The notes under the pieces were generated by a model, which did no database searches, had not been told where the DNA came from, and was given only the letters and a program-made list of their open reading frames with translations. 37,894 nt of DNA from positions 1-37,894 of the forward strand of contig DAIDAH010000001.1 of NCBI GenBank assembly GCA_027310735.1. Direction: 5' to 3'. The translations under genes were made by a program, and so were the position numbers. The first letter of the stretch is position 1. Each line of letters opens with the position of its first letter. This DNA is from Methylotenera sp. Lineage in GTDB: Bacteria; Pseudomonadota; Gammaproteobacteria; Burkholderiales; Methylophilaceae. Below, in pieces: positions 9,818 through 36,428 of this stretch.

Positions 9818-9827
9818 GGCTCATACC

Positions 9828-15835: not shown

Positions 15836-16552
15836 ATGTTACAAAAAAATATTGGCAGCAACGAACCCAAGCAAGACAAAATATACGCTGAATTAATTTC
15901 AGTGAAGAAAAAACTTGAGGACTTAGAGCTTGCTGATTCAGCCATTACTGAAGGCATATGGGTTCTTCACATGGTCAATGGTGATCCTGACCATAAAGAG
16001 AGCACCATAGAATGGTCTAGCCAATTTAGAAGACTTTTAGGATACGAACGAGCGGATGACTTTCCTAACGGATGGGACAGTTGGCTTAAAGCTATCCATG
16101 CTGACGATAAACAACAAGCATTAGACGCCTTTAGCGCCCATTTGAATGACAGTAGCGGTCTCACTCCCTATAACGTTGAGTATAGAATGCAGACTGCAAA
16201 TCGTGGCTATGTATGGTTTCGTGAACGCGCCATTACTGCCCGCAATGATTCCAACTTAGCGCTTCGCTCAGCAGGAGCCATTCGTGACATTAGTGACGAG
16301 AAAACTACCCAAGAATTGCATCAGCTTAATGTTATTCGTAATGAACAGAACATGCGTGAGATCATGAGTGTAGCTGATACTATTAACCAAATCGCGATGC
16401 AAATTAACATACTAGCCATTAATGCAGCAATAGAAGCAGCCCGAGCAGGTGAGGCTGGTCGAGGTTTTGCCGTTGTGGCCAGTGAAGTACGTAAACTGGC
16501 AGAACGTACTACTCAAGCGATGAATGAGATACGTTTGATGGCAAACAAATAG
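15836..16552 (+). CDS. Small soluble PAS-domain chemoreceptor (PAS_3 plus short MCP signalling hairpin)
   Basis: PAS with [10 protein letters not shown]...IHADD...VEYRM...WF; MCP tip [37 protein letters not shown]; no TM segment. Confidence 0.88.
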
Positions 16553-16607: not shown

Positions 16608-17015
16608 TCAATAAACCACAGATCTAAGCGTAGTAAAAGCTTCCGCTTGAATCAACCATAGGCCGTCAGCTTGCCTCTGCCATTTAGCCGAATACACTCC
16701 AGCAACAAAAACTGTTTTTTTGTCTAATGTGTATTTACCGACCCAATTACCAAGCTCCTCAGCATCTTTTAATAAACTACTTGTATACACTTTTCTGGTT
16801 CGCCTACGGTAAACCGTAATTGGATCATGCAAAAATGTAGCTTGCCAGCGTTGACGTTGCGCTTCAATCCCCTGTGACTGAACGCCACGTCCGGTCAAAA
16901 CATGATAGTCAAAAGTTAAAAATGAACAGATTAAATCCACATCCCGACTTAATATAGCATCGTTGTAGCACTTACGTGCCGACGTGATGTAATTGATGTG
17001 ATCAATACGTTGCAA
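16608..17015 (-). CDS. NTF2/SnoaL-like (DUF4440-like) protein
   Basis: 135 aa with YNDAI..RD, G.W.G and G.YSAKWQRQ.DG.WLI.AE.F patterns; 26 nt downstream of the response regulator; TTG start is uncertain. Confidence 0.7.
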   Translation of the reverse strand: MQRIDHINYITSARKCYNDAILSRDVDLICSFLTFDYHVLTGRGVQSQGIEAQRQRWQATFLHDPITVYRRRTRKVYTSSLLKDAEELGNWVGKYTLDKKTVFVAGVYSAKWQRQADGLWLIQAEAFTTLRSVVY

Positions 17016-17041
17016 ACCTCAAATATCCGCGTGATTTATAG

Positions 17042-17692
17042 TTATTTTTGCCGATGCGCCCATACGGCTGCTTCAAGCCGACTGGTTAGCTTCAGTTTAC
17101 TTAATAAATGTTTAATATGAACTTTTACAGTAGTGTCGCTAATACCCAAGGCACGCGCTATGGTCTTATTATTAAGGCCGTTTGCAAGACATTCAAGAAT
17201 CTCCCGCTCTCGCTCAGTGAGTGCTACATCCTCTTCACTTTTGCTAAGTGTTGGGTGGATTAGCGCATTTTTAAGTATTTCTGTCAGACTTTCATGTAAA
17301 ACAGTTACGCCAAGCATGGCTCTGCTTAAATTATCGCAAAGATCCTCAGGCTCCATATCCTTTAACAAATATCCATCAGCGCCTGCTCGTAAGGCTTCAA
17401 GTAAATCATCCTCTGCATCTGAAACTGTTAACACAATACACTTTGACTCTAACTTCGCATCTTTGATATGAGCAAGTGTTTGCAAGCCATTCATGCCCTT
17501 CATATTTAGATCGATCAAAACAAGGTCTGGCTTCAGTTCCTGAACTAGCAATAAACCTTCAGCACCAGATGCCGCTTCACCTATCACTGAAAATTTTGAA
17601 TCAGCTGAAATCATTTGTATGACGCCTTTTCGAAATAACGCATGGTCATCAATAATAACTACTGTAGTAGGCACTTGCATAAAGTTCTCCAA
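17042..17692 (-). CDS. narL: NarL-family response regulator (REC plus LuxR HTH)
   Basis: IDDHALFRKG, DLNMKGMNG, LTVSD, GADGYLLKDMEPEDL and LTEREREIL...GLNNK.IAR.L.ISDTTVKVHIKHLL.KL are strongly NarL/NarP-like; orthology to nitrate-responsive NarL is not established. Confidence 0.88.
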   Translation of the reverse strand: MENFMQVPTTVVIIDDHALFRKGVIQMISADSKFSVIGEAASGAEGLLLVQELKPDLVLIDLNMKGMNGLQTLAHIKDAKLESKCIVLTVSDAEDDLLEALRAGADGYLLKDMEPEDLCDNLSRAMLGVTVLHESLTEILKNALIHPTLSKSEEDVALTEREREILECLANGLNNKTIARALGISDTTVKVHIKHLLSKLKLTSRLEAAVWAHRQK

Positions 17693-17728
17693 CGTTAAAT
17701 TTTTACTGTTTGAATGACAATGTGATAA

Positions 17729-19558
17729 TTATTTCGGCCGGAATAACAAGCGAACGCGCGTACCGCCAAGGCGTCTAGGAATAACTTCAATAGTGCCTCC
17801 TAGACAATAAGCTCGCTCAGTCATAATAGCCAATCCATAATGATGCGGTTTAGCCTCATCAAAAGAGCAACCTTTACCATCATCATCGATTGTGACAATC
17901 ACATCTCCAGTTGATTGCAGCACAAGCGCAATCGTTACTTTCTCAGCACCTGAGTGACGCACGATATTAGACAAAGCCTCACGCACTACATGCAATAGAT
18001 GAAACTCTTCATTCACGCTTAATCGACATTCCTGCAGTCTATTATCCAGCATGATATTCAAGCTAGATCGTTGTGAAAATTCTTCGATGGCTTCTTCAAG
18101 TACATGATCAAGCCCTCGTATATCCATTTGCACCCTAAACGTGGTGAGTAGCTCTCTTAGCTCGCGATAAGCGTTATCCAGCCCATCTCGCATATCATCA
18201 ACAATTGTTACTGCACCACTTTCAATGAGATTGGAGCCAAAATTTGTTTGCAGGCGTGCCAGTTGAAATTTCATATATGAAAGCGACTGCGCCAAAGAGT
18301 CATGCAACTCTCTAGCAATGACCGCACGCTCCTCAAGCAATGCTACCCGTCGACTTTCTTGCTCTCTAGCCTGAAAACCCATTGAAAGTGCCAGCATTTG
18401 TGCTGTCACTTCAAATAATTGCAACTCAGCACCTTCAAAATAATGATTAGCTTCGGTTTCCAACAGGAGGATCCCCAACCAGCCACTAGGGCTAAGTAAT
18501 GGCACTGTGACACATTGTACACATTCGCCATGAATCAACTTTGTTGTATGACTTACAGCAACAGAGTTTACTGTTTCGTCAAACATACTTTCATCAAAAG
18601 ACAATGGCCAATAGCTTGAAAATAAAGCACGCTGTGCAGAGATGCGCGAACCATTTTCACTAAAAACCAACGCCACATTGCCCACCCCCAAAGTACGCTC
18701 AAGCGAATAAAGCGACTTTTTGATGGTTAATTCACTCAAACCAGAATCGCCAATTAACTTAGCCAGCTTAAACATGAAGTCTTGCGCAAGAATCATTTTC
18801 CGCATTTTTTCTGTGCTGGTGATATTCACCCATTTTGTTTCGACCTGAATGCCTTCTAGCCTTGCAGACAATTCAGCCGTTGATTTTTCCAACATCTCAA
18901 ACTCATCATCATATTGCTGGCTATTCATATTAGAAACTAGATCACTTGGCATCATTGAGAAAACCTTGCCTAACCTAAGAATCAGAATACTCCACGATGT
19001 CAGCATAATGCCAGCTCCAATGCAGAATACGAGAAACAAGCACACTAACTGTAATAATGAAACTACTGACTGCTTAATAACAACATCTTTTTCCGCCGCA
19101 GATATAAACTCATCATAGGCACTTATGACAAGTTGCCCTCGCTCTAGAATAACCTCCTTTGAAAGGCTGTGTACTCGAGCATCAGCAAAGTTATGGTGCG
19201 CTGATTCAAGTTTTTTATAGGCCCTAGCTAAACTCGTATCATTTTGATTCTTAGCCCATATATATGCCGAGTCATCAAAGGCACTCTGGTTCTCATTCAA
19301 GAGATTAAAGTCTGAACTGCTCTCGTTTAAATTATTTTTTAACTTATAAACCTCTAACTTCCAGAGCGATTGATCTTGATATGCATGATGAATAATAGAT
19401 AGATGATCGGGAATATAGTCAAAAAGGAATAATGAACCAGCCTGCATCAATATCACAGACAAAATCATAGATATGACTAAAGTATGCAAGCTTGCATAAA
19501 GTTTGTGTTTCTTTACAAAAACACGTATTAACTTGGAAATACTCAAAATATTTTGCAT
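17729..19558 (-). CDS. NarX/NarQ-like sensor histidine kinase (HisKA_3) with divergent periplasmic domain
   Basis: Two TMs; GAF-like central region with CVQC; H-box EERAVIARELHDSLAQSLSY; AYRELRELLTTFR; REALSNIVRH, DDDGKG and HYGLAIM.ERA. Confidence 0.9.
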   Translation of the reverse strand: MQNILSISKLIRVFVKKHKLYASLHTLVISMILSVILMQAGSLFLFDYIPDHLSIIHHAYQDQSLWKLEVYKLKNNLNESSSDFNLLNENQSAFDDSAYIWAKNQNDTSLARAYKKLESAHHNFADARVHSLSKEVILERGQLVISAYDEFISAAEKDVVIKQSVVSLLQLVCLFLVFCIGAGIMLTSWSILILRLGKVFSMMPSDLVSNMNSQQYDDEFEMLEKSTAELSARLEGIQVETKWVNITSTEKMRKMILAQDFMFKLAKLIGDSGLSELTIKKSLYSLERTLGVGNVALVFSENGSRISAQRALFSSYWPLSFDESMFDETVNSVAVSHTTKLIHGECVQCVTVPLLSPSGWLGILLLETEANHYFEGAELQLFEVTAQMLALSMGFQAREQESRRVALLEERAVIARELHDSLAQSLSYMKFQLARLQTNFGSNLIESGAVTIVDDMRDGLDNAYRELRELLTTFRVQMDIRGLDHVLEEAIEEFSQRSSLNIMLDNRLQECRLSVNEEFHLLHVVREALSNIVRHSGAEKVTIALVLQSTGDVIVTIDDDGKGCSFDEAKPHHYGLAIMTERAYCLGGTIEVIPRRLGGTRVRLLFRPK

Positions 19559-19608
19559 ATTTTATCTAGTTCTTTTTATACTCGTACATTGGCATATTCA
19601 GGTTTAAT

Positions 19609-21000
19609 TTGATGAGTTTATTCATTTTTTCAACACTAATCATCAGCATTAGCTTCTTAACGATTCTTGGTTCATGGTACAGCATTCAAGGGCCATTTTT
19701 ACAACATCTTGTCATGTTAATTTCAGTGGCAGTTGCTATATTTTCCGCCGCGATTGTGATTGCGATACAACCATTGTTATCCTCAAGAAAATCGCGCTTA
19801 CAACATGCTCTACCGCATGAAGCTGCATGGGGAAATGAACTATCTACGGTATTAACCACTCCAGCAGCTGTGCTTGATGGTTTTGTCGTCAAGTTTGTTA
19901 ACACTCCTTTTCTTCAAGCACTAGGCATGGTAGGCATGGCAGACCAAGTTCTAGGCATGCCATTTACCAATTTAATACATCCGGCCGACCATACAAACTT
20001 TGCAGAACTCAGTGTAGAAGCTTCTACAGGTAAGACTAAGAATGAGGCGACTAAAATTCGCATGGTGTGCTCAGATGGCAGCACTTTACCTGCGAATAGC
20101 AGCCTGACCCGCCTACGCGAGGATCGCCGAAACAATCTAATGCTTTTCCAGTTCACACCAATCACTACAGTCAACACCTTAAACAACAATTACGAACCAC
20201 AATTCAATTACCATTCCATTATCGAAAAACTTGAAGAAATAGTATTTCAACTAAATGCAGAAGGAAAAATCATCTTTCTTAACTCTGCATGGGAGAGTTT
20301 GCTTGAATTGAAAACTCAAGATTGTCTTGGTAAACCAATTACCGCGTATGCCCACCCCGAGGATAAACCTATGCTAGAAGCCAGACTAGACTCACTAACA
20401 CAAGGTAAAAGAACTAATTGCACGATTGAAACTCGGCTACTTACAGTGCGCGGCGACCCTACTTGGGTAATCCTCCGAGCAAAAACCACAGCAGCTACAA
20501 CATGGGAAAGAACAAGCGTTATTGGCACCATGATTGACAATCAACAAAATAAAGAAGCTGAGGCAGGCATCATTGCTAACCGACGCGCAGCCAACGCCCT
20601 TTTAGCTCATGTTCCAGGCATGGTTTACCGTTGTAGAAATGACCGTTCATGGAACTTTGAGTTTGTAAATGAAGGTTGCATTGATGTCACTGGGTATGAC
20701 TCCCTCGAGTTAATTAACAATCCAAATATTACCTTCAACCACATTATCCATCCTGACGACAGAGAAGCCGTTTGGGAATCTGTCAATCAGCAAATAAACT
20801 GTGGTGAGAAATTTAAGCTGATTTACCGTATCATTACCCGCAAAGGGGAAACCAAACTGGTACAAGAAAATGGTCGCGGTATTTTCTCCAGCACTGGCGA
20901 ATTATTAGCTTTAGAAGGTTTCATTACAGAGATTCCGGACCAGCGCTATAACGTTACCTCCCCATACTCTCAAAACTCAGGTAATAACAGTACAAAATAA
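19609..21000 (+). CDS. Membrane-anchored triple-PAS protein with no output domain
   Basis: Two N-terminal TMs; three PAS repeats with IHPADH, AHPEDK and IHPDDR; ends shortly after LEGFITEI. TTG at 19609 or ATG at 19612. Confidence 0.82.
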   Translation: MMSLFIFSTLIISISFLTILGSWYSIQGPFLQHLVMLISVAVAIFSAAIVIAIQPLLSSRKSRLQHALPHEAAWGNELSTVLTTPAAVLDGFVVKFVNTPFLQALGMVGMADQVLGMPFTNLIHPADHTNFAELSVEASTGKTKNEATKIRMVCSDGSTLPANSSLTRLREDRRNNLMLFQFTPITTVNTLNNNYEPQFNYHSIIEKLEEIVFQLNAEGKIIFLNSAWESLLELKTQDCLGKPITAYAHPEDKPMLEARLDSLTQGKRTNCTIETRLLTVRGDPTWVILRAKTTAATTWERTSVIGTMIDNQQNKEAEAGIIANRRAANALLAHVPGMVYRCRNDRSWNFEFVNEGCIDVTGYDSLELINNPNITFNHIIHPDDREAVWESVNQQINCGEKFKLIYRIITRKGETKLVQENGRGIFSSTGELLALEGFITEIPDQRYNVTSPYSQNSGNNSTK

Positions 21001-21027
21001 ATAGGACGCAATGCGTCCTATTTATTT
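20995..21027. terminator. Bidirectional intrinsic terminator between the convergent PAS gene and porin gene
   Basis: Perfect inverted repeat AAATAAATAGGACGCA-A-TGCGTCCTATTTATTT. Confidence 0.85.
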
Positions 21028-21084
21028 ATTCAACAGTTAAACAACGACTTTCAATGTTAACTGATTCAAGTTTGAACGCGCATA

Positions 21085-21882
21085 TTAAAATGTACGTTTA
21101 ATGTAACCAATTACGCGATCGCCACCGGTTCCCCACCCTTTAGCATCAACATACCAAGCTTTATTTGCATCAGTTGTTGTGTAATTCAAACCGGCATTCC
21201 ATCCTGTACTACCTGCAATTGAAAAGTCCTTGTTTACTCCCACTAGCCAGTCAGTGTAATTACCATCAGAGTAGTTATGTACCGTTTGATGACCTACATG
21301 CAGCGCTAAATTAAGGTCAACCACTGGTAATGGGTAGGCAACGTTAAATTCGGTATAACCAGAACCGCGGGAATCACCTTTTCCACCGAAAGTATTGTTA
21401 ATGCCAAAAAAGTTTGTGACAGCGTACGAATGCTTCAATGTGAAGTATTTGTAGGTTAAAGCAGCGTTAAGCTCTGTGGTATTTGGTGAACCGCCAGTAC
21501 CGCCTGCATGATTAGCATCAGGATAAAAGAATTGTAGAAAACCAACATTCAAACTTAAACTCTCAGTCAATGGTCGCACATATCCACCATAAAGGTCCAA
21601 CTCTACAGTGTTACCATACAAGGCATCCTGTTGTACGTTACTAGCCCAAACTCCGGCATAAAGGCCACTGCTATGTGAGTAGTCGATACCACCCTGCACA
21701 GCACCACGCTCTCTAGTATATGAAATACCACGGAATGTATAGTCGGTAAAAAAACCAATATTAGCTGTAACAGTATGCGGTGAAGCAGGCTGTTCAGTAG
21801 CAACAGTCTCGTCAGCTGCATATACACTAAAAGTAGAAACGAACATACTAGCCAATAACACTGGCTTTATTAAATTTTTCAT
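21085..21882 (-). CDS. TorF / Gcw_chp family putative outer-membrane porin
   Basis: Signal peptide, DY.FRGIS, AVQGGIDY, G.Y.GVW.SN, ELDLYGGY and a C-terminal Phe. Confidence 0.85.
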   Translation of the reverse strand: MKNLIKPVLLASMFVSTFSVYAADETVATEQPASPHTVTANIGFFTDYTFRGISYTRERGAVQGGIDYSHSSGLYAGVWASNVQQDALYGNTVELDLYGGYVRPLTESLSLNVGFLQFFYPDANHAGGTGGSPNTTELNAALTYKYFTLKHSYAVTNFFGINNTFGGKGDSRGSGYTEFNVAYPLPVVDLNLALHVGHQTVHNYSDGNYTDWLVGVNKDFSIAGSTGWNAGLNYTTTDANKAWYVDAKGWGTGGDRVIGYIKRTF

Positions 21883-21995
21883 ACAACCCCCAAAAGTTAA
21901 TTTAAAATCAATTACCTACACTTACATTAAACAACTTAATGCAATCGCTGATTCACTTGACTCAGTATTGTTTAATTCTTTTAAACTCACGCTTT

Positions 21996-23036
21996 TTATT
22001 CTGCATGAGTGCCGACATCTAAAGCTGCGCCATCATCAAACTTAGCAAGCCAATCCACTACCAGTGGATGAAATTTAGTCATGCCTTTGTATTCGATTAA
22101 ATCTGGATGCATTGTTTTCTGCACCCGGTGCAGGCGCTTAGCCCAGCGAGAGTAAGTAGAAAGATCTTTTAGGTTTATTAAATAGCAACGTATGCTAAAC
22201 ATAATTGCATTGCTACGTGGCAGCCTGAACAGAGTCTGCAACTCAACACGCAGATGTACTAGGTCTGACACATTGTCCGCATTGACCGCGTTTCTGTCCC
22301 CTCCCCATTGCGGATAATTCTCCGGCGAGGTATCAAGGCGCGGATTAATTGTCATCGTCCAATTAAGCCTGCGTACCGGGCTACCAAACTGAAGATTCAA
22401 CAGATGCTTTAAAGCGCGATCCATCACACCTAGCTCAGTAGCACGAGGCACTGGGCCGTGCCACTCTCTCCATGACATACCAACGTTAAATGCAAGAGAC
22501 CAGTCTGCCTGACTCGTTACGATGCCAGCGTCGGCAAATAAAGTCTCTTCACGGTGATCAAGCAACACAAAATCGCCCTGAACTTGCCTGCCCATATAGT
22601 CGAACGGTTCCATTGCCAAAGTTGAACTGTCGCCAAATGTGAAAGTATCTTTAATGCCTAATGGCTTATTTTCCCAAGTCCATACCGATCCATTTTTATT
22701 TAAAGAAAAATGCTGTGGGTAGTCCTGAGATAAAGATTCCATAGTCAACTCTAAGAAATCCCATTGCGCATCCATCATGTGTGGCAGAGCCTGATATCGA
22801 CCAGGATCTTGCTCAAGTGTGATTTTCTTATCAAGACATTCAGCCACATAGTGCTCATCTACATCAAACGTAAACTCACATACAGAGCCAACTTTCCCTT
22901 TAACATGCGGCTCGATATTCACCGAGTACATATACTGATCCTCAGGAAAAGGAAAAGGGAATCGTTTGATTGCCTCGGCAGAGTTACTGTAGGTATAGTC
23001 TTCTCGGAAAGTTTCTTTCTTGAACGTAGATGCCAT
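21996..23036 (-). CDS. dmmC: Dimethylamine monooxygenase haem subunit (DUF3445 / haem-dependent oxidative N-demethylase alpha)
   Basis: ETFREDYTYSNS.EAI.RFPFPF.ED.YMYSVNIEPH, WHGPVP, RRLNWT and LRVELQ.L.RLPRSN motifs; last gene of dmmDABC. Confidence 0.88.
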   Translation of the reverse strand: MASTFKKETFREDYTYSNSAEAIKRFPFPFPEDQYMYSVNIEPHVKGKVGSVCEFTFDVDEHYVAECLDKKITLEQDPGRYQALPHMMDAQWDFLELTMESLSQDYPQHFSLNKNGSVWTWENKPLGIKDTFTFGDSSTLAMEPFDYMGRQVQGDFVLLDHREETLFADAGIVTSQADWSLAFNVGMSWREWHGPVPRATELGVMDRALKHLLNLQFGSPVRRLNWTMTINPRLDTSPENYPQWGGDRNAVNADNVSDLVHLRVELQTLFRLPRSNAIMFSIRCYLINLKDLSTYSRWAKRLHRVQKTMHPDLIEYKGMTKFHPLVVDWLAKFDDGAALDVGTHAE

Positions 23037-23136
23037 AATATTTACCTTTTATTGCCGTTTCAAAATTTCTTAAATAGTGAAATAACGTCGATTAATCAAT
23101 AAAGTCTGATTATTGATTTCGCCTGTTATTACCAAG

Positions 23137-24090
23137 CTAAAGATCGAGCAACAAACGCTTGCCGTTTGCCCGAGATACGCAAGGCATAATCTTTTTACAC
23201 GATACTTTTTCTGAGTCTGTCAAAAAGTGGTCATTGTGTAAAATTGCACCATCAGTCTCCAGCACTTGCAGCTCACACCTGCCGCAAACACCACCGCGAC
23301 ATAAATAATCAGCTTCCACACCTGCAGCTTCTATTGCTTCCAACATGCTCATATCTGCTGGAACCTGAATTTCAATATTGGATTTAGCCAGCTGAATATT
23401 GAACGGCTCACCTACAGGAGGTGAAAGAAACTGTTCGTTATGGATATGTCTTTCCGGCCACCCTAGATTTCGAGCAGTCTCTAAAACAACTGTGACCATA
23501 GAACTAGGCCCGCACACATACACATGTGTGCCTAATGGCTGATCACCTAGTAAGGCTTTAAAGTCTAGTTGTTCACCTTGACTATCTATATAGCAATGCA
23601 AACGACTACTGCAGCTTTTCTTTAGTTGCTCAACAAAAGCACCATGCTCTGGTGAGCGGAATGCGTAGTGCATCTCATAGTCAGCTCCTAATCTATTAAG
23701 GTCTGCAATTTGCGACATAAACGGAGTAATGCCAATACCGCCAGCAATTAAGATATGCTTATGCCCTTTTTTTGCTAATGAAAACAGATTAACTGGGTAT
23801 GTAATCTTAATGGGCATACCGACAGTGACATGCTCATGCATAAATACCGACCCGCCTCTAGAGTTCTCTTGTTTACGCACAGAAATATGATATGCGTCTG
23901 TAGCTTCAGGTGAGCCCATCAGAGAGTAAGGGTTGCGATGTACCCGTCCACCAATATCCATTGATACCACTACATGGCTACCACCTGAAAAGGGCGGCAA
24001 TTTAGAGCCATCTTCTTTTACAAAAGTAAAGTGCTTAACTAATGGCGTTACCTGCTCAACGGCAGCAACTATTGCATTTATCATGCTCAT
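23137..24090 (-). CDS. dmmB: Dimethylamine monooxygenase reductase (PDR/VanB family, flavin plus [2Fe-2S])
   Basis: RNPYSL, SRGGS, AGGIGITP, YVCGP and C-terminal CRGGVCGRC...PC; ATGA overlap with dmmA. Confidence 0.88.
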   Translation of the reverse strand: MSMINAIVAAVEQVTPLVKHFTFVKEDGSKLPPFSGGSHVVVSMDIGGRVHRNPYSLMGSPEATDAYHISVRKQENSRGGSVFMHEHVTVGMPIKITYPVNLFSLAKKGHKHILIAGGIGITPFMSQIADLNRLGADYEMHYAFRSPEHGAFVEQLKKSCSSRLHCYIDSQGEQLDFKALLGDQPLGTHVYVCGPSSMVTVVLETARNLGWPERHIHNEQFLSPPVGEPFNIQLAKSNIEIQVPADMSMLEAIEAAGVEADYLCRGGVCGRCELQVLETDGAILHNDHFLTDSEKVSCKKIMPCVSRANGKRLLLDL

Positions 24091-24689
24091 GGATATATCT
24101 CCTCAATCTCTGGTAATTGGCCTGGAGATTCCGCATCAACCATCAATCCCATATAGGCACCCAAATGGCGTGAGAAATGATCGCGCACAAACAACATACG
24201 TTCACAACTTGAGCACTTACCAATGTTAGTAGTGATGTTGTGCGTAATAGCCTTGCAATGTACGCAATAAATAGACCGTGCCAGCGTACCGGTCAACTCT
24301 TTCATAATGTCAGCATCTTCAATGCCAAATTCTTTAACTGCCTCAGCTACAGCCCAGATAAAGCCTTCAGAACCAGCCACATAAATACGTAAACCCATCC
24401 GTTTGGTCGGCATAATCCTTTTTAATAGACTCACCACCTCTTGCTCTGACTTCAACAAATGCAAATCTTCAGGCACAACTTTTTTTAGCGTGATCGCAAA
24501 ATTTGCATCAATATCTGAGTGCTCATAGAGCGTCGTGACTGGCTGTTGCGGGTGCATTTGTTGAAATAACTTGATCGCCGCCAACCCACCCTGACCTTGT
24601 GCCACGACCAAATGTGAGGTTGCCTTTTCATGCCAAACTAAGGAAGTGTAAATAGGCTTACTTTTAATCCAATATCCGCGCTCCATCAT
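24087..24689 (-). CDS. dmmA: Dimethylamine monooxygenase subunit DmmA
   Basis: IKSKP.Y, MGLRIYVAGSEGFI, CVHCK...CSSC...VRDHFSR.LGAYMG; translationally coupled to dmmD and dmmB. Confidence 0.88.
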   Translation of the reverse strand: MMERGYWIKSKPIYTSLVWHEKATSHLVVAQGQGGLAAIKLFQQMHPQQPVTTLYEHSDIDANFAITLKKVVPEDLHLLKSEQEVVSLLKRIMPTKRMGLRIYVAGSEGFIWAVAEAVKEFGIEDADIMKELTGTLARSIYCVHCKAITHNITTNIGKCSSCERMLFVRDHFSRHLGAYMGLMVDAESPGQLPEIEEIYP

Positions 24690-25807
24690 TAGCCCCTTAT
24701 TTTTTCTGGATTAGTACGTATGCGCATCGGATCATAAAATGGCGTCTGCGCTACTCGCGCCTCACATACTCCAGCGCGCCCATCCACTTCAACCAAGGTA
24801 CCAATTGCGCTATATTCCGGTTTGACATGGGCTAATGCCAATGAAAGCATTAGATAGTTACTGTAACTACTGCTTGTTATCACACCAATCTCAACACCGT
24901 TTTTCATTACTTTTGCGCCAGCTTCTACAGCATTTGCACTGGTACAAATCAATCCAACTTGAAGCACTCGAGCACGCTCACGCAACTTCAACACAGCCTC
25001 TTTGCCGGTGTAATCCGCCTTCTTATTTACGTCTACAGCCCAACCAAGACCTGCTTCCCACGGAGTGGTATCACCTTCAGGCATTTCAAATGGAAAAAAC
25101 TGCAATGCACCCTCAACACGCATTAACTCCAGACAGTTCCATGATGCCGGAATGGCGCCAAGCGGCTTACCAACCTCAAGAATATTATCCCAAAGCGTGA
25201 GCATGTTTTTTGAAGCAGCATAGATCTCATAACCACGCTCTGCCGCATAACCACCACGCCCTATCATCACATCAATGCCAAACAAAGTGGTTTTGACACA
25301 ATTGAAATAGGGCAAGTCAGCCAGCTTACAATTAACGTGCGGTGATAATATTTCTAGCGACTTTGGTCCTTGCAGCGAAATAACATGCGTGTCTGTATCT
25401 TGCTCAACTTTAATATTCTTACCGACAGCTAATAGCTGTAAATTCTGAAGTGTTTTGCCGCTACCATGTGAAACCATAAAAGCATTTGCAGCTTCACGAA
25501 CGATCATAATGTCGTCGCATAATGCACCGACTTCATTCAACTCAGCTGCAATCATGGCCGCGTTAACTTTTAGCGCAGTAACATCTCTTGCAACCAATGT
25601 ATTAAGTACACTTTCAGCATCAGGCCCAGTCACATTTACAAGGTTGAGCGCAGACACATCGAACAAACCAGCGCAGCTGCGCACGGCAAACACTTCATCA
25701 TTAGCATCCGTGCTGTAACTCCAAGGCACAGGCATATCATTCCAAGTATCGCCATCCAAACCTGATCCAAGCGTAATATGCCTGCCGTTAAGTACTGAAT
25801 TTCGCAT
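24689..25807 (-). CDS. dmmD: GcvT-like aminomethyltransferase family (THF-binding) subunit DmmD
   Basis: GLFDVS, DDIMI, SLQGPKS, GY..ERGYEI and PFYDP GcvT-family motifs; first gene of the dmm operon. Confidence 0.85.
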   Translation of the reverse strand: MRNSVLNGRHITLGSGLDGDTWNDMPVPWSYSTDANDEVFAVRSCAGLFDVSALNLVNVTGPDAESVLNTLVARDVTALKVNAAMIAAELNEVGALCDDIMIVREAANAFMVSHGSGKTLQNLQLLAVGKNIKVEQDTDTHVISLQGPKSLEILSPHVNCKLADLPYFNCVKTTLFGIDVMIGRGGYAAERGYEIYAASKNMLTLWDNILEVGKPLGAIPASWNCLELMRVEGALQFFPFEMPEGDTTPWEAGLGWAVDVNKKADYTGKEAVLKLRERARVLQVGLICTSANAVEAGAKVMKNGVEIGVITSSSYSNYLMLSLALAHVKPEYSAIGTLVEVDGRAGVCEARVAQTPFYDPMRIRTNPEKIRG

Positions 25808-25865
25808 TTTCTTCCCAAGTCATCCGACGTAATTTTTTAAAAACATCTTTTACAATATGGTTTAC

Positions 25866-25953
25866 ATACTATCGGAATAGAAAAACGTCGAAAATTCTCT
25901 TGAAGGTGTACTACCAAAGAGGTATTAAAAGTGGTATTAAAGGGTGTGGCACA
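25866..25953 (-). promoter_or_regulatory. dmmDABC promoter with NarL-type 7-2-7 box and predicted -35/-10
   Basis: Minus strand: TACCTCT-TT-GGTAGTA (25924-25909), 14 nt, TTTTCG, 17 nt, TAGTAT (25871-25866); extra heptamer in a 12-bp direct repeat at 25918-25941. Confidence 0.7.
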
Positions 25954-25991
25954 AAAAAATAGTGTGAACCACAATCATATGATTCACACTA
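25953..25991 (-). terminator. Intrinsic terminator after etfA
   Basis: Inverted repeat TAGTGTGAA...TTCACACTA followed on the minus strand by T7. Confidence 0.75.
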
Positions 25992-26007
25992 CATTGACTA
26001 ATACTTC

Positions 26008-26973
26008 TTAAGCCGCAAGCTGGTTTTTCAACTCTTCTTCCATCTCAAAAATATCAGCCACTATCCCGTACTTGGCGATGGTAAAGATTGAAGCACCTGG
26101 GTCAGTATTCACGGCGATAATAGTCGGCACATGCTTCATACCAGCCATATGCTGAATCGATCCCGAAATACCCAGCGCAACGTAAAGTTTGCATGAACCA
26201 ACCACTTTGCCAGATTGCCCGACTTGTCTTGATTTAGGCAGCCACCCAGCATCCGCAATAGGTCGTGAGCAACATAAGGTTGCACCTGCCGTTTCAGCAA
26301 GTTCACGGAACTGTTCAACATTGGTTTCTTCGCCAATGCCGCGACCGATAGACACAATAAAATCAACCGCGGTAATGTCTACATCATTAGCGCCACCGGG
26401 CTCGATAAACTCTTTATTCTGGCTACGAGACTGCACTACAGGTAAATCAAAACTACTTACAGATGGATTAGCCGCGCCTTCAAGGACTTTGAACACACTA
26501 GTACGTAGCGTCAACACAACGGTAGATTTACCTGGAAAATCCACTTCAACATTCACTTTTTGGTTATAACCGCCACGAGTCGCTACTAACTCATCACCTT
26601 GATATTCGGCAATAAATACATCCGTAGCATAGCCATAACCGGCTTTACTTGCCAAAGTCGCAGCATAACCTAGGGCATCAACAGAATGCGGTAGTAACAC
26701 TACGGCGGGGTTCTTTGCTGTAATTAATGCTGAAACGGCTGACTCAAAAATATCAGGATCAAAATCAGCAATTGGCGTTTGCACTACAATCACTTCATCT
26801 ACACCTGCAACTGACAATGCCGGCACAAAAGATTCAGCCTGACTGCCGATGACAGCTACCAGTACCTTATCATCTACTGATTTCTTTAATCCGTATGCCG
26901 CAGCAATAAGCTCTAAACTCACTGGACGCAACTCATTGCGACGATGCTCCGCAATTACTAAAATAGTGCTCAT
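26008..26973 (-). CDS. etfA: Electron transfer flavoprotein alpha subunit (TMADH-partner type)
   Basis: SIGRGI, CCSRPIAD, RQVGQSGK, GISGSIQHMAGM and AVNTD motifs; closely matches recalled M. methylotrophus ETF alpha. Confidence 0.96.
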   Translation of the reverse strand: MSTILVIAEHRRNELRPVSLELIAAAYGLKKSVDDKVLVAVIGSQAESFVPALSVAGVDEVIVVQTPIADFDPDIFESAVSALITAKNPAVVLLPHSVDALGYAATLASKAGYGYATDVFIAEYQGDELVATRGGYNQKVNVEVDFPGKSTVVLTLRTSVFKVLEGAANPSVSSFDLPVVQSRSQNKEFIEPGGANDVDITAVDFIVSIGRGIGEETNVEQFRELAETAGATLCCSRPIADAGWLPKSRQVGQSGKVVGSCKLYVALGISGSIQHMAGMKHVPTIIAVNTDPGASIFTIAKYGIVADIFEMEEELKNQLAA

Positions 26974-26975
26974 GC

Positions 26976-27770
26976 TTATGCTCCCTTAAATTCGTTAATA
27001 ATCTGGATGATTTTGGCTGCTTGCTCTGCCAGCGAACCTTCAATCATTTCTGCGCGACCTTTTTCTGGGATATACATGCGGCGTACACGTGACATTGAAT
27101 TTCCGGCGCCAACATCACCAGTTGACAGGCCAACATCTGCCAGTGAAAGCTCTTCAATAGGCTTGGCAGCGGCTTGCTTGATACCTCGTAGCGATGCATA
27201 CCGTGGCTTATTAATGCCAAGCTGTATGGTTAATACCGCAGGGCAATTAATTTCAACCTCTTGCAACATGCCGCCTTCAAGCTCACGACGAACCACAGCT
27301 TGACTAGCGCCGGGCTGATATTTAAAATCCGCGACGACTGCCGCATGTGGCCAGTTCAAATAAGCTGCGGTAGAGATACCTGTTGAGGCATAGGAGTGAT
27401 CAGATGACTGTACGCCGGCAAAAACAAGATCTGGCGCTTCTTTTTTGGCAACAGCGGCTAAAATTTTACCAATAGCTATTGCATCAGAACCCTCAATACT
27501 GTCATCCCAAACTCTAATTGCGCGGTCTGCGCCTTTAGCCAGACATTTACGCAAACTTTCATCCACGCGATCAGGTCCAATAGAAACTACAACGACTTCA
27601 ACCTCAGAGTCACTGGACTCTTTGATTTTCATTGCTTCTTCAAGTGAAAAATCATCCCACTCATTCAAGTCATACAGCAGGAAGTCTTCGTCTACATCTT
27701 TTTCATCAGCACGGATTTCAAAATCCTCATCTAATGCTGCGACTTGTTTTACTGCTATCAATATCTTCAT
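26976..27770 (-). CDS. etfB: Electron transfer flavoprotein beta subunit
   Basis: MKILIAVKQV, LNEWDDFSLEEA, GADRA, RRELEGG and INKPRYASLRGI; closely matches recalled M. methylotrophus ETF beta. Confidence 0.96.
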   Translation of the reverse strand: MKILIAVKQVAALDEDFEIRADEKDVDEDFLLYDLNEWDDFSLEEAMKIKESSDSEVEVVVVSIGPDRVDESLRKCLAKGADRAIRVWDDSIEGSDAIAIGKILAAVAKKEAPDLVFAGVQSSDHSYASTGISTAAYLNWPHAAVVADFKYQPGASQAVVRRELEGGMLQEVEINCPAVLTIQLGINKPRYASLRGIKQAAAKPIEELSLADVGLSTGDVGAGNSMSRVRRMYIPEKGRAEMIEGSLAEQAAKIIQIINEFKGA

Positions 27771-27814
27771 ATCTTCTATCTCCTAATAACTTCAATACTT
27801 ACCATCATTGTTAA

Positions 27815-29233
27815 TCACCTAACGGCTGACTCACAAAGCCTACTTGCCATCCACCTAAACACCATAAATCTGACTTGAAAATCTGGATCGTCTCGCAAAG
27901 ACCACTTATCCTTCCCTTTTAACCTAACGCTTCCTACTAGCATCAATCGATGTAAATAGTAGGGATCTTCCAGCAAAGGCAACAAGGTTTTACGCGTTGC
28001 ATATTTATTTAAAATCACACCCCTACGTATATCTAGCTCTGGTGATGCAGCCAAATCTTGCAGAATCATTTGCGGAGTGTGCGGGTTATTGGCAACACCA
28101 CTCAGTACGTCAATATTGTTATCTGTAGCCAGCGCTTCCATCACCACCTTTGGTGACTTGTGTTGATAAGCTACTGCAGAGCGCACCCATGCGCTTTGGT
28201 CCTTAGCCAACGCTTTCAACAACCCAACCGGACAGCATGTATTTCTAGCTACAGCCCGCCTTACATCCACCTCAAAATCAACTGAAAGCCTCTCGAGCAC
28301 CTTACGTGGTATCCGTGGATTACGCGCAAGCCACTGGCGCACCCAAGAGTCTTTGTCGTTCGCTAAGGCATTAATACTTGCCGCTGTTAAATCTAACCTT
28401 GCTGCAATTGCACGCCTGACTAGACAACTATCATCAAGAAGCAATCTCATCACCAACACTTCTGGTGACGCTACATTTGAAGCTACACCACACCTAACAG
28501 CGACATCATGACTTGCTGCTAAATTGACCAATGTTTCGCTAGAGACTCTCGCGTTAACTGCCAACTTACGCATGATCTTTACATCTTTGTCGCTTACAGA
28601 TTCATCAATAACCGCCTGCGAGCATCTAGCGTGACCGATTACTGCAGCTCGCACATACTCATCACCTTTGGCATAAATAAAATCAAGTAACTCTGTCGAT
28701 GTGGATGGGTTCTCAGCCAAATTTTTGTACAAAACTCCAATTATTTTGCTGTTTGCCATTCGCTCCAGCATCACACTTAACACCTCTGCACTTGCCGCAG
28801 GATTTCTACTTACCGCTTTTAAGCTTTGCTCATCCTCACTCAACTGCACGATGCTGGCCAAGACACTTACCGGGCTATGCAGGTGTTGCGCAATCAACAC
28901 AGTAAAATCTGAATTTAGTTGCCTGACATCAGCTTGACCAACATAAAGCTGAGACAATGCCTTAGCAGTTGCATTTGGATTCTTATCTAACCGTATGACT
29001 ACGCCACTATCGCCATTACCAGCACTACTATTTGCAATTGCCTCCAGTACAGATGCTGGGGTATGTTCCCATCTGGCCAGCAATAATGTATTACGCCTTT
29101 TATCAAACATAAGCGCTTCCAAACGTCTCTTATCGCGCCCTGTTGCAATGTTATGAACCGCTGCCGCACAGTATGGATCACCAGCTTTGATCGCTAACCT
29201 AACCAAATCAGTGGCTTTAGCTGGCATCCCCAT
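27815..29233 (-). CDS. Helical repeat protein with 26-aa LRV/HEAT-like repeats, function unknown
   Basis: About nine or more tandem xxVRxxVAxNxxxPxxxLxxLAxDxx units. Start placed at ATG 29233, 1 nt after the upstream TGA, rather than at 29296. Confidence 0.78.
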   Translation of the reverse strand: MGMPAKATDLVRLAIKAGDPYCAAAVHNIATGRDKRRLEALMFDKRRNTLLLARWEHTPASVLEAIANSSAGNGDSGVVIRLDKNPNATAKALSQLYVGQADVRQLNSDFTVLIAQHLHSPVSVLASIVQLSEDEQSLKAVSRNPAASAEVLSVMLERMANSKIIGVLYKNLAENPSTSTELLDFIYAKGDEYVRAAVIGHARCSQAVIDESVSDKDVKIMRKLAVNARVSSETLVNLAASHDVAVRCGVASNVASPEVLVMRLLLDDSCLVRRAIAARLDLTAASINALANDKDSWVRQWLARNPRIPRKVLERLSVDFEVDVRRAVARNTCCPVGLLKALAKDQSAWVRSAVAYQHKSPKVVMEALATDNNIDVLSGVANNPHTPQMILQDLAASPELDIRRGVILNKYATRKTLLPLLEDPYYLHRLMLVGSVRLKGKDKWSLRDDPDFQVRFMVFRWMASRLCESAVR

Positions 29234-29234
29234 A

Positions 29235-31361
29235 TCAAACGGCTTGCGGCAAGCCTTCCCACGCTTCATATTCAATACATTCATCAATAAGTTCAATTAG
29301 CTCGCGTACGATGAACTTACCTTCAAATCCAGAGGTTTTTAGTGCATCCTCAAACATCGTTAGATCTTTAGGGCATGAAACTACAAACACCTGTAAACCC
29401 TCAATTTGCCCAGCTTCTTTCATTCTATTGGCTGAAGGTTTTTCGATGCCGACTGGATCCGGTATCCAGATGCGACCACCACCAGCACCGCAACAAAAAG
29501 AGTTGTCACGATTACGTGCCATTTCCACCAGTTCGCAGCCAAGCAGTTTCAGTACATCACGCGGTGCGTCATAACCTTTGTTATAGCGGCCAAGATGGCA
29601 TGGGTCATGGAAAGTCACACGGTAATCGAGCTTCTTTTTCAGTTTGATCTGACCGCTCTCTATAAGCTGCTTCACTTTTGTCGTGTAATGCTCAATCTCA
29701 AACTTACCGCCGAAATCAGGATATTCATTACGGATAGTATTGAATGAGTGAGGGTCTGTTGTGACAATTGACTTAAAGTCACAAGATTGAATAGTCCCAA
29801 TATTAGACGAAGCTAATAACTCATATAGCCCCTCCTCTCCCACTCGGCGCACATCATTACCAGCATTGAGTTCAGCCTCAAAAAGCAAGCCAAAATTCAC
29901 ACCCGCGTGATGCATCAATCGAGCAAAAGACTGTGTTACCTTTTGGTTACGCGGATCAAACGAAGCGTAGTCACCAACAAACCAAAGTACATCCACTGGT
30001 TCTTTACGTGCATCTTTAATTTCAAATGGCAACTCTTTAGCCCAGGCAGCCCTCTTGCGTTTTGATTCGCCAAATGAGTTACCTGTTTTATGGATAGTTT
30101 GCAGCGTTTTTTCCAGCAAAGGCTCCATTTCCCCAGCCTCAACCAGATTACGTCGCATTTGTACAATAATAGGCACATGCTCAACGGCTACAGGACATAT
30201 CTCGACGCAGGCCAGACAAGTACGGCATGACCATAATGTCTCCATAAATACCTGTCCAATATCTTTACCATGAATATCTAACTCAGCTTCTTTCGGGATT
30301 TCTTTTGCGCTCAGCGCATGGTTAGCAAACTCACGCAATGAAAGAATCACATCTCTAGGTGACAATGGTGCACCTACGGCATTGGCAGGGCATGCTTCCT
30401 GGCAACGGCCACACTTGGTACAAGCATCAAGATGCAATAGGTTTTTCCAAGTTAAATCGGTAATTGTCTTGTAGCCCGCGGTTTTTTGCTCATCCGGTAC
30501 TCGAGGCAACCTTTTACCGGCAAGAGGATCCTTGAACATCAAGGATGTTGCAGCAGTGAAAATATGCTTGATTTTAGTATAGGGAATACAAGCTATAAAA
30601 GTCAGCGACAATAAGCCATGAAACCACCACAGGCCTACGCGTAAGTTACTGGCACCTTCAGCAGTTAATCCTATCAACTGCATAAGTTGTGCAAGTAAAG
30701 CGCCAACTGGCGACCATATACGATAATCCCAGACTTCTGGCCGACCACTTAACCAAACTAGACGCGTTGCTTCAAGGACGAAACCTGTAACACCAATCAG
30801 AATGAATGACCATAGAAAAGCCCAGTCTTCTCGCCGATATTGGTTGCGATCAAAATCAGGATCACCAACCTGCCTATCCACCCTTTTATAATCTAACTTA
30901 GGAAGGTTAAGCCATTTACGGCGATACATCATGTAAATCAAACCTACAATTAACCCGATACCAGCCAAATCCAACACAAGGGAAAATAATAGATAAAAGT
31001 TACCGTACCAAAACTGCACGCCAAATAACGGACGCAGTATGTCGTACTCTAGCGTAATGGTAGACGTACCTATAAACAGCAGTACGAAGCCAAAGAAAAT
31101 TAGGCCATGTGCACGACCAGCACTTTTATCACGTCGCACTAATGTGCGATGCGATACCATCGTTTTAGCCATATCAATAAAGCGGTGTAGCAAATCGTTC
31201 CATGAGCCATCAGACTTACCGCGACGGTATTTTCGCAACTGGACATAGACGCCATAAATAAAAACCGCAATGGCTACATAACCAATTGCATAAAATAAAT
31301 ATATCGCCTGTGGCTGAAAGTTTTCAAACAACACTCTGGTGATTTCTTTAGGATTATTCAT
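29235..31361 (-). CDS. Membrane Fe-S oxidoreductase (cytochrome b-like TM domain, two 4Fe-4S motifs, CCG domains); EMO/EtfD/FadF-like
   Basis: About 5 TMs with His residues (RAHGL, WFHGL, IKHIF); CTKCGRCQEACP and CRTCLACVEICP; HDPCHLGR, SFCCGAGGG and VSCPKD. Confidence 0.88.
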   Translation of the reverse strand: MNNPKEITRVLFENFQPQAIYLFYAIGYVAIAVFIYGVYVQLRKYRRGKSDGSWNDLLHRFIDMAKTMVSHRTLVRRDKSAGRAHGLIFFGFVLLFIGTSTITLEYDILRPLFGVQFWYGNFYLLFSLVLDLAGIGLIVGLIYMMYRRKWLNLPKLDYKRVDRQVGDPDFDRNQYRREDWAFLWSFILIGVTGFVLEATRLVWLSGRPEVWDYRIWSPVGALLAQLMQLIGLTAEGASNLRVGLWWFHGLLSLTFIACIPYTKIKHIFTAATSLMFKDPLAGKRLPRVPDEQKTAGYKTITDLTWKNLLHLDACTKCGRCQEACPANAVGAPLSPRDVILSLREFANHALSAKEIPKEAELDIHGKDIGQVFMETLWSCRTCLACVEICPVAVEHVPIIVQMRRNLVEAGEMEPLLEKTLQTIHKTGNSFGESKRKRAAWAKELPFEIKDARKEPVDVLWFVGDYASFDPRNQKVTQSFARLMHHAGVNFGLLFEAELNAGNDVRRVGEEGLYELLASSNIGTIQSCDFKSIVTTDPHSFNTIRNEYPDFGGKFEIEHYTTKVKQLIESGQIKLKKKLDYRVTFHDPCHLGRYNKGYDAPRDVLKLLGCELVEMARNRDNSFCCGAGGGRIWIPDPVGIEKPSANRMKEAGQIEGLQVFVVSCPKDLTMFEDALKTSGFEGKFIVRELIELIDECIEYEAWEGLPQAV

Positions 31362-31451
31362 TTAGCATCGCCTATTGAAAGGAGTTTATTAAGTTTTTAA
31401 TCGATAACCTTGTAAGGTCTGATTACGTAGAGATTCTTGACTAGCATTTAA

Positions 31452-31487
31452 AGCATGGCTACCGAATCATTATTCAGTAGCCATGCT
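31452..31487. terminator. Stem-loop directly after tmd (weak terminator or mRNA-stabilising hairpin)
   Basis: Perfect 11-bp arms AGCATGGCTAC / GTAGCCATGCT; only a short U-run follows on the minus strand. Confidence 0.65.
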
Positions 31488-31495
31488 GGCAACAT

Positions 31496-33727
<2,232 letters not shown>

Positions 33728-33729
33728 CT

Positions 33730-33788
33730 ATTCTCATTGCGATGCCATATTCAAACAATTACCATCATGGCTTACTACTAAGGTGTTA
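33730..33788 (-). promoter_or_regulatory. tmd promoter with NarL-type 7-2-7 box
   Basis: Minus strand: TAACACC-TT-AGTAGTA (33788-33773), 14 nt, TTGTTT, 17 nt, GAGAAT (33735-33730). Confidence 0.65.
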
Positions 33789-33806
33789 CTTGAGTGTGTT
33801 GCAGAA

Positions 33807-33863
33807 AAGCAATAAAAAAGCGGGCGAGGTATAAACGTCCCCTCACCCGCTTTTTTATTGCTT
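33807..33863. terminator. Strong intrinsic terminator after the APC permease
   Basis: AAGCAATAAAAAAGCGGGCGAGG...CCTCACCCGCTTTTTTATTGCTT inverted repeat with A/T tracts on both sides. Confidence 0.88.
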
Positions 33864-33866
33864 ACG

Positions 33867-33895
33867 GCAGGCCTATAGACATGCAATAGGCCTGC
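33867..33895. repeat. Second hairpin immediately after the permease stop codon
   Basis: Perfect 10-bp arms GCAGGCCTAT / ATAGGCCTGC around a 9-nt loop. Confidence 0.7.
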
Positions 33896-33904
33896 GAAAG
33901 ACAC

Positions 33905-35765: not shown

Positions 35766-35825
35766 ATTTTGCTGATAAACCTTACTTGATTACAATTCTC
35801 ATTACGGATTACTCTATAAGTGGTA
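35766..35825 (-). promoter_or_regulatory. Permease promoter with NarL-type 7-2-7 box
   Basis: Minus strand: TACCACT-TA-TAGAGTA (35825-35810), 14 nt, TTGTAA, 18 nt, CAAAAT. Confidence 0.6.
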
Positions 35826-35853
35826 GTTGGCCATATTTTTATATGTATTATTC

Positions 35854-36392: not shown

Positions 36393-36428
36393 AAAAATTC
36401 AAACTTATAATAAGCGGAATGCGAACTA

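What the first reader, a model, noticed from the sequence alone, without database searches (positions are those of the whole stretch)
16608..21000. Repurposed NarX/NarL-like system without the nitrate P-box, possibly a multi-component amine sensor
Seen: the kinase keeps NarX-type transmitter signatures (ARELHDSLAQSLS, AYRELRELLTTFR, central CxxC). It lacks the AINxAGSLRMQSYR P-box; only QAGSLF appears, at the end of TM1, without the Arg. There are no nar/nap genes in the window, and the pair flanks the dmm-tmd island. Known: the P-box Arg is the nitrate ligand in NarX/NarQ. Inference: the input domain has been replaced and senses methylated amines or their metabolism, possibly with the divergent PAS protein and the NTF2-like protein as accessory components.
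Basis: partly seen in the sequence, partly recalled or inferred. Interest (0 to 1): 0.8.

Follow-up and report, generated by a model that had tools for sequence, protein, structure and literature searches.

The report
Nitrate sensor rewired for methylamines
A descendant of the nitrate-sensing pair NarX/NarL has lost its nitrate-binding site and, together with a neighbouring membrane-anchored PAS protein, likely switches on the genes that bacteria use to consume tri- and dimethylamine, through a predicted DNA box found in front of those genes.

Summary
The kinase (17729-19558) is NarX-derived and has no P-box. Its periplasmic domain was not replaced: the model keeps the NarQ fold (VIA Z 11.5-12.7), with the nitrate Gly/Arg read as Tyr60/Gln63. 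That domain is the least conserved part and is deleted in 29 of 68 non-redundant orthologues, so it is an unlikely amine receptor. The divergent two-TM, three-PAS protein occurs in exactly the same 55 of 251 family genomes as the kinase. All 55 carry dmmC or a tmd-type dehydrogenase, 54 carry a dimethylamine-oxidising enzyme, and 7 carry only that one with these queries. The trio also flanks dmd, tmd, tmm or dmm in Paracoccus, Paraburkholderia, Cupriavidus and metagenomes. New here: a NarL-type 7-2-7 box. A matrix trained on relatives finds four strong sites in the 2.76 Mb genome, three of them heading the window's permease, tmd and dmm operons. The NTF2 protein (14 of 55) looks like a target, not a signalling part. 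Best reading: a three-component activator of methylamine oxidation, likely sensing cytoplasmic dimethylamine through the PAS protein. Ligand, kinase-PAS contact and DNA binding are untested. No description was found in 10 paper searches.

The parts
17729..19558 (-). NarX-derived sensor kinase, 609 aa: TM1 27-45, degenerate NarQ-type four-helix periplasmic domain, TM2 168-186, HAMP-like region, GAF-like domain, HisKA_3 (His419), ATPase domain
19358..19396 (-). Position of the lost P-box (residues 55-67; Gly read as Tyr60, Arg as Gln63)
17042..17692 (-). NarL-type response regulator (NCBIfam NarL 279 bits, cut-off 250); Asp61 and the TTVKVH helix conserved; likely start at ATG 17677
19612..21000 (+). 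Membrane-anchored PAS protein, 462 aa: two TM helices (1-19, 34-52) and three PAS domains, no output domain; distant orthologues keep a degenerate GGDEF tail
35791..35827 (-). Predicted operator (7-2-7 palindrome plus second half-overlapping site) in front of the TmoP-like permease; score 43.0
33754..33790 (-). Predicted operator in front of tmd; score 26.5
25890..25926 (-). Predicted operator in front of dmmD; score 18.1
33905..35605 (-). Predicted target: APC permease, TmoP-like (NF053774 852 bits, cut-off 690)
26008..33688 (-). Predicted target operon: trimethylamine dehydrogenase tmd (31496-33688; Tyr60/Ser74/Trp105), Fe-S protein, LRV-repeat protein, etfB, etfA
21085..25807 (-). Predicted target operon: dmmD, dmmA, dmmB, dmmC (dimethylamine monooxygenase) and a TorF-family porin
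16608..17015 (-). NTF2-like (DUF4440) protein; clade-restricted passenger, likely a target rather than a signalling part

Best explanation
This is likely a three-component system that activates methylamine oxidation genes: the membrane-anchored PAS protein likely senses dimethylamine in the cytoplasm and likely controls the NarX-derived kinase, which would phosphorylate the NarL-type regulator, which is predicted to bind the 7-2-7 box in front of the permease, tmd and dmm operons. Shown by the calls: loss of the P-box, NarQ fold of the periplasmic domain, its repeated deletion, the identical distribution of kinase and PAS protein, linkage to methylamine genes, and the box with its placement. 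Inferred: phosphotransfer to this regulator and its binding to the box (about 0.9); activation rather than repression (a second imperfect 7-2-7 site would sit at -43.5 if the TTG that follows is the -35 element; no start site mapped); PAS protein as obligatory input, probably through contacts between its TM hairpin and the kinase TM1/TM2 (about 0.75); dimethylamine as the ligand (about 0.55). Trimethylamine and TMAO would induce indirectly, through the dimethylamine made by TMADH or Tdm.
For: Kinase and PAS protein in the same 55 of 251 genomes; PAS gene divergent from the kinase in 69 of 69 family loci, 37 of 40 metagenome loci, 3 of 4 plasmid loci, nearby in the fourth. Periplasm mean conservation 0.12 (gaps counted as zero) against 0.43-0.71 elsewhere; 54 residues or fewer instead of about 124 in 29 of 68; short-periplasm kinases keep PAS gene, regulator, tmd/tmm/tdm/dmm and box. 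55 of 55 kinase genomes have dmmC or tmd; 54 of 55 have dmmC or the dmd-type paralogue; 54 of 56 such genomes have the kinase. Seven genus-g16 genomes have kinase and dmmC but no tmd, full-length tdm or tmm with these queries. In Paracoccus aminovorans the trio brackets a dmd-type dehydrogenase. Box: 4 sites scoring 18 or more in the genome, none with 10 column-shuffled matrices; in front of 50 of 63 dmm operon heads and 11 of 14 tmd/dmd genes, 0 of 34 etfB, 0 of 63 dmmC; pattern in 52 of 55 kinase genomes and 8 of 196 others, reversed control in 12 of 251. Five near-complete genomes with the box have no P-box NarX and only this close NarL homologue.
Against: No ligand is identified: the conserved residues of the third PAS domain are largely shared with unrelated PAS_3 domains and no related solved PAS domain names a ligand. 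Three metagenome loci have room but no PAS gene (L140, L142, L144) and 6 of 17 long metagenome loci show no methylamine gene by my queries; in L102 and L106 the box heads a porin-urocanase-ABC-histidine ammonia-lyase operon and L141 sits among restriction genes. G203 has the dmd-type gene but neither kinase nor box. No box in front of the kinase or PAS gene (0 of 70, 0 of 103). Related genomes are not independent, some loci are duplicates, and the metagenome query was chosen from short-periplasm proteins, which inflates the 29 of 68. Tyr60 and Trp66 are invariant in the window's close clade, so that clade's periplasm may still bind something.
Confidence: 0.55

Rival explanations
1. Same trio and same regulon, but the PAS protein reads a consequence of amine oxidation (flavin redox state of TMADH/ETF, formaldehyde, folate-bound C1 units or monomethylamine) rather than dimethylamine itself.
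For: PAS domains often carry redox cofactors (general knowledge); the box also heads folE2 and ribBA cofactor genes; no amine pocket was identified.
Against: 196 of 251 family genomes, methylotrophs that all make formaldehyde (general knowledge of the family), lack the system; seven kinase genomes lack TMADH with this query; the system tracks dimethylamine enzymes 54 of 55.
Confidence: 0.2
2. The APC permease is the co-sensor (as in transporter-kinase pairs), and the PAS protein only scaffolds or modulates the kinase.
For: The permease lies next to the regulator in 10 of 34 close loci and many distant ones; the kinase keeps TM-proximal residues while losing its periplasm.
Against: The permease is itself a predicted target (box in 30 of 32 upstream regions) and is absent from the 38 kb Paracoccus locus; the PAS gene, not the permease, is fixed beside the kinase.
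Confidence: 0.1
3. The kinase's own periplasmic bundle binds an amine at the dimer interface where nitrate used to bind.
For: Tyr60, Gln63, Trp66 and Trp101 are invariant in 35 close homologues; fold and dimer-type site are those of NarQ.
Against: Tyr60 is kept in 20 of the 37 non-redundant orthologues that have a residue there, Gln63 in 17 of 39; the domain is largely deleted in 29 of 68.
Confidence: 0.1
4. The pair still responds to nitrate or nitrite, or the boxes belong to the canonical NarL, linking amine oxidation to anaerobic respiration.
For: The genome has narG and a P-box NarX with its own NarL; the box has the NarL 7-2-7 form, so cross-talk in this genome is possible.
Against: No GxxR, and loss of the Arg makes NarX/NarQ ligand-insensitive (PMC8199190 section 9); five genomes with boxes have no P-box NarX; boxes follow this kinase across 251 genomes.
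Confidence: 0.05

Closest known systems
NarX/NarL and NarQ/NarP (E. coli nitrate/nitrite two-component systems)
   Same: Domain order sensor-TM-HAMP-GAF-like-HisKA_3-ATPase; NarQ fold of the sensor; NarL-class regulator; 7-2-7 box, with an inferred site at -43.5 as at yeaR (PMC10853779 passages); kinase core groups with P-box kinases in the tree.
   Different: P-box lost; periplasm variable or deleted; a dedicated PAS partner gene; targets are methylamine genes, not nar/nap/nir.
Three-component systems with an accessory sensor: TorS/TorT/TorR, UhpABC, DcuS/DctA (recalled, no call)
   Same: A separate protein supplies the signal to the kinase.
   Different: The accessory here is a membrane-anchored, cytoplasm-facing PAS array that appears to descend from a PAS-GGDEF(-EAL) protein, not a periplasmic binding protein or a transporter. 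TorSTR senses TMAO for respiration with a hybrid kinase and an OmpR-type regulator (recalled).
SecR of Aminobacter (PMC13199381; abstract start, passages and Introduction read)
   Same: NarL/FixJ-family activator needed for growth on methylamines.
   Different: SecR is an orphan without phosphorylation site or kinase and controls the serine cycle; this regulator keeps Asp61, has a kinase and is predicted to control the oxidation steps.
dCache_1AM amine receptors (recalled, no call)
   Same: Proposed response to methylated amines.
   Different: Those bind amines in a periplasmic dCache domain; no Cache domain was found in either protein here.

Membership tests
Nitrate/nitrite-sensing histidine kinases (NarX/NarQ) | P-box with G-x-x-R nitrate site (PMC8199190 sections 6 and 9) | tested here: not met
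   No GxxR in residues 1-200; position holds Tyr60/Gln63
Nitrate/nitrite-sensing histidine kinases (NarX/NarQ) | NarX-like N-terminal domain by profile (PilJ, PF13675) | tested here: not met
   0 of 42 members at E<=1 among the families shown; genome search finds it only on C151 and C317
Nitrate/nitrite-sensing histidine kinases (NarX/NarQ) | Four-helix sensor plus TM fold of NarQ | tested here: met
   VIA ranks 1-6 are NarQ, Z 11.5-12.7; 6xyn 156 residues, rmsd 2.9. Z is under the 13 that helical bundles can reach by chance, but NarQ also covers TM and HAMP parts and heads Foldseek ranks 2-6 at E 0.03-0.04
Nitrate/nitrite-sensing histidine kinases (NarX/NarQ) | GAF-like, HisKA_3 and ATPase domains | tested here: met
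   HisKA_3 and HATPase_c; strand-rich domain at 256-392 in the model; NarX/NarQ models hit at 210-225 bits, below cut-off
Nitrate/nitrite-sensing histidine kinases (NarX/NarQ) | Nitrate-respiration genes nearby | tested here: not met
   None among the window ORFs scanned; neighbours in relatives are methylamine genes
NarL-type response regulators | NCBIfam NarL score over cut-off; receiver Asp and LuxR helix | tested here: met
   279 against 250 bits; Asp61, Thr89, Lys111 and TTVKVH kept in at least 97% of 70 rows
NarL-type response regulators | Binds 7-2-7 palindromes | tested here: inconclusive
   A TACYNCY-TW-RGNRGTA palindrome follows the regulator across genomes; binding not testable here
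Three-component systems with accessory sensor | Accessory gene conserved with the kinase | tested here: met
   Same 55 of 251 genomes
Three-component systems with accessory sensor | Accessory binds the ligand and is required for signalling | not testable with these tools
   Needs binding assays and deletions

The most novel reading that the evidence does not exclude
A widespread, undescribed dimethylamine-sensing switch built from two crippled signalling proteins: a NarX that lost its input (down to deleting the periplasmic domain in several lineages) and a membrane PAS-GGDEF protein that lost its output, now working as one receptor-kinase complex in which cytoplasmic PAS domains bind dimethylamine and signal through the membrane helices to a NarL that runs a whole methylamine regulon (uptake, tmd, dmd, tmm, tdm, dmm, folate and flavin supply).
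Probability: 0.4. Interest if true: 0.85.

Novelty: new variant of a known kind. Interest (0 to 1): 0.74.

Why it matters
A 2026 paper states that regulation of the primary methylamine oxidation steps is unknown beyond a proposed GntR repressor (PMC13199381 Introduction). This locus gives a candidate regulator, a candidate sensor and an operator sequence, all present in culturable strains (Methylophilus methylotrophus, the source of the TMADH structures; Paracoccus aminovorans; Paraburkholderia phymatum), so the question becomes directly testable. It would also be a clear case of a nitrate sensor changing its input by recruiting a partner rather than swapping a domain, would correct database labels (many homologues are annotated NarX), and could give a dimethylamine reporter for water, soil or DMF/metformin waste streams.

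Tried and rejected
Complex prediction of kinase 15-480 with PAS protein 1-445: no answer (score 0.01); no evidence either way. RNA runs: no RNA holder listed. Earlier findings of the scan: nothing by place or words. Profile search of the sensor region against PDB sequences gave only chance hits. Foldseek on the full-length model returned kinase cores only. The wide structural search could not be run, so folds outside Foldseek's top 885 were not compared. PAS ligand: Atlas look-alikes are generic PAS_3 clusters; PDB hits are 3mr0 and ARNT; unrelated PAS_3 domains share the motif. CxxC as a redox site rejected (11 of 68). QAGSLF as P-box remnant rejected. NTF2 as core part rejected; in G070 and G225 it follows folE2-ribBA-TorF away from the kinase; no PDB relative. 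The tree gives the family as one side of a branch with weak support only (64/77), so monophyly is not shown. The ergothionase idea for the L102 lyase was not supported: it scores as histidine ammonia-lyase with hutU. A first seed pattern found nothing and a strict pattern was too narrow. The Fisher test overstates, since kin are not independent, and is not used. Paper searches listed no paper describing this system; the library lacks most subscription papers, including the Paracoccus aminovorans transposon study (PMID 28856785), seen only as a reference; no supplements were read.
Full report
Setting. The window is contig C111 of a 2.76 Mb genome whose closest named homologues are Methylotenera and other Methylophilaceae. 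From 16608 to 35605 it carries an NTF2-like gene, a NarL-type regulator, a HisKA_3 kinase, a divergent PAS gene, a TorF porin, dmmCBAD, etfAB, an LRV-repeat and an Fe-S protein, a 730 aa dehydrogenase matching TMADH 1djn over its whole length, and a TmoP-like permease.

Observation. The transmitter motifs are there and the P-box is not. The published P-box consensus and the role of its Arg are from PMC8199190 (abstract and sections 6, 9, 13 read). QAGSLF (39-44) is inside TM1. The P-box position is residues 55-67: alignment with P-box kinases puts Gly on Tyr60 and Arg on Gln63, and the structural alignments start with offsets of 13 to NarQ and 9 to NarX, which place NarQ Arg50 (named in the PDB titles) and NarX Arg54 (recalled) at residue 63 if no gap intervenes. 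The CxxC is present in 11 of 68 non-redundant orthologues.

The input domain is degenerate, not replaced. A model of residues 1-250 (pLDDT 75) finds NarQ sensor-TM-HAMP fragments at Foldseek ranks 2-6 (E 0.03-0.04) and at VIA ranks 1-6 (Z 11.5-12.7). The weakest hits of the profile search are true P-box kinases, and the kinase core groups with them (weak support inside). The periplasm is the least conserved region (0.12, gaps as zero, against 0.43-0.71) and shrinks from about 124 to 54 residues or fewer in 29 of 68 non-redundant orthologues. That share is inflated because the metagenome query was built from short forms, and two rows may be cut at the start; but a deletion also occurs within the family, in G009. 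The genome keeps a separate P-box NarX beside a Crp/Fnr-type gene and has narG.

The PAS protein is a fixed partner. It has two TM helices and three PAS domains and no output. In a sample of 251 family genomes the kinase N-terminal part and the PAS N-terminal part were found in the same 55. The gene is divergent from the kinase in 69 of 69 family loci with room, 37 of 40 metagenome loci and 3 of 4 plasmid loci (left out: L078, L086, L087, L089 and the unrelated kinases L154-L168; some loci are duplicates). In Paraburkholderia and many metagenome loci it has a 150-170 aa tail, which scores weakly as GGDEF in the one tested (E 6e-4); in Cupriavidus oxalaticus it is TM-TM-PAS-PAS-GGDEF with a further tail. 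The last two PAS domains are the common core and the last is the best conserved (0.66), though partly as a generic PAS_3 subtype. The NTF2 gene is in 14 of 251 genomes, all with the kinase, but not always beside it.

What it is linked to. All 55 kinase genomes have dmmC (49) or the tmd family; of 58 genomes with either, 55 have the kinase, the misses being G058 and G248 (90% and 87% complete) and G203. The 65% paralogue of tmd has Gln60/Thr74/Phe105, the dimethylamine dehydrogenase signature (recalled). Counting dmmC or that paralogue, 54 of 55 kinase genomes can oxidise dimethylamine; the miss, G040, is 85% complete. Thirteen kinase genomes lack tmd; seven of them (genus g16, one closed) also gave no tmm and no full-length tdm (not found with these queries). 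Dimethylamine is thus the one substrate common to nearly all. Outside the family the trio brackets the dmd-type gene in Paracoccus aminovorans, and sits in tmd-dmm-etf clusters of Paraburkholderia phymatum and caribensis (regulator 16 kb away) and Cupriavidus, and beside tmd, tmm, tdm or dmm in 11 of 17 long metagenome loci.

The operator. Upstream regions of the permease in relatives share a motif. A 37 bp matrix from 21 distinct sites (30 of 32 loci; window not used) scores 18 or more at four places in the genome: before the permease, tmd and dmmD in this window and before a cupin gene on C372; a fifth (16.5) precedes folE2; ten column-shuffled matrices gave no site at 18 and 0-2 at 15. In related loci it precedes 50 of 63 dmm heads, 11 of 14 tmd/dmd, 4 of 10 tmm and 6 of 11 tdm genes (these last include operon-internal genes), and none of 34 etfB, 63 dmmC, 70 kinase or 103 PAS upstream regions; also folE2-ribBA. 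The consensus of 106 sites is TACYNCY-TW-RGNRGTA, then a second imperfect 7-2-7 overlapping by two bases, then TTGT and a -10-like element 17 bases on. If that TTG is the -35 element the second site is centred at -43.5, the position of NarL at yeaR (PMC10853779, passages); this is inference. A pattern written from these sites hits 52 of 55 kinase genomes (partly circular) and 8 of 196 others, against 12 of 251 for the reversed control (counted by hand). Five near-complete genomes with boxes have no P-box sensor and only this regulator at E<=1e-35, so the canonical NarL cannot own the box there.

Mechanism. The simplest reading is a three-component activator: amine enters by porin and permease; TMADH or Tmm/Tdm turn TMA and TMAO into dimethylamine; the PAS protein binds it (inferred) and switches the kinase, probably through membrane-helix contacts (inferred from conserved Leu20, Gln170, Leu192, Arg195 and the TM hairpin); phosphorylated regulator binds the box and activates uptake, oxidation and cofactor genes. 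Against it stand the lack of any identified pocket, three loci without the PAS gene, loci L102/L106 where the box heads a histidine-utilisation-like operon, and G203 with dmd but no system.

Novelty. It works like NarX/NarL at the output and like accessory-sensor systems at the input, but it is not a member of the nitrate-sensing kinases. Ten library searches listed no description; PMC8399692 (passages) lists the enzymes in Methylophilus without a regulator in the passages seen, and PMC13199381 (Introduction) calls the regulation of the oxidation steps unknown. Subscription papers and supplements were not seen. Verdict: new variant of a known kind, interest 0.74.

Noticed in passing
L078:14716-18972 (G009): A second kinase-regulator-PAS set: a soluble HisKA_3-type kinase (393 aa), a NarL-type regulator and a two-PAS protein close to the last two PAS domains of ours (119.8 bits), directly upstream of tmm. 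Possibly a parallel trimethylamine switch.
   Followed up: partly
L102:233-8054 and L106:250-8065: The trio with a strong box heading porin, urocanase, ABC transporter and histidine ammonia-lyase genes; may act on an N-methylated histidine, untested.
   Followed up: partly
window 15836-16552 (+): Short soluble chemoreceptor-like protein (PAS_3 plus a cut MCP signalling domain, 238 aa); homologues lie just upstream of dmmD in L055, L057 and L064, so it travels with the island.
   Followed up: no
window 35970-37801 (+): Truncated globin, EamA transporter and a 92 aa ORF, divergent from the permease; they recur in the island in several relatives, including Cupriavidus for the last two.
   Followed up: no
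G000:C372 21718-22167 and C340 365-1457; L176, L177: Boxes before an EutQ-like cupin gene and before folE2(-ribBA); the cupin is also next to dmd in Paracoccus. Function of the cupin in amine oxidation is open.
   Followed up: partly
L001:291-1757 (G000:C151): The genome's P-box NarX is a short form (488 aa) without the GAF-like region, beside a Crp/Fnr-type gene.
   Followed up: no
window 27815-31361 (-): LRV-repeat protein and CCG/4Fe-4S membrane protein between tmd and etfBA, conserved with tmd up to Paraburkholderia; likely the ETF-to-quinone link for TMADH.
   Followed up: no
window 7865-12958 (-): Sucrose cluster (amylosucrase-like, sucrose-phosphate synthase/phosphatase, PfkB kinase), ordinary for this family.
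   Followed up: no
window 19559-19611: Only 53 bp separate the kinase and PAS start codons, and the same spacing is kept in most close relatives, which suggests overlapping divergent promoters.
   Followed up: no
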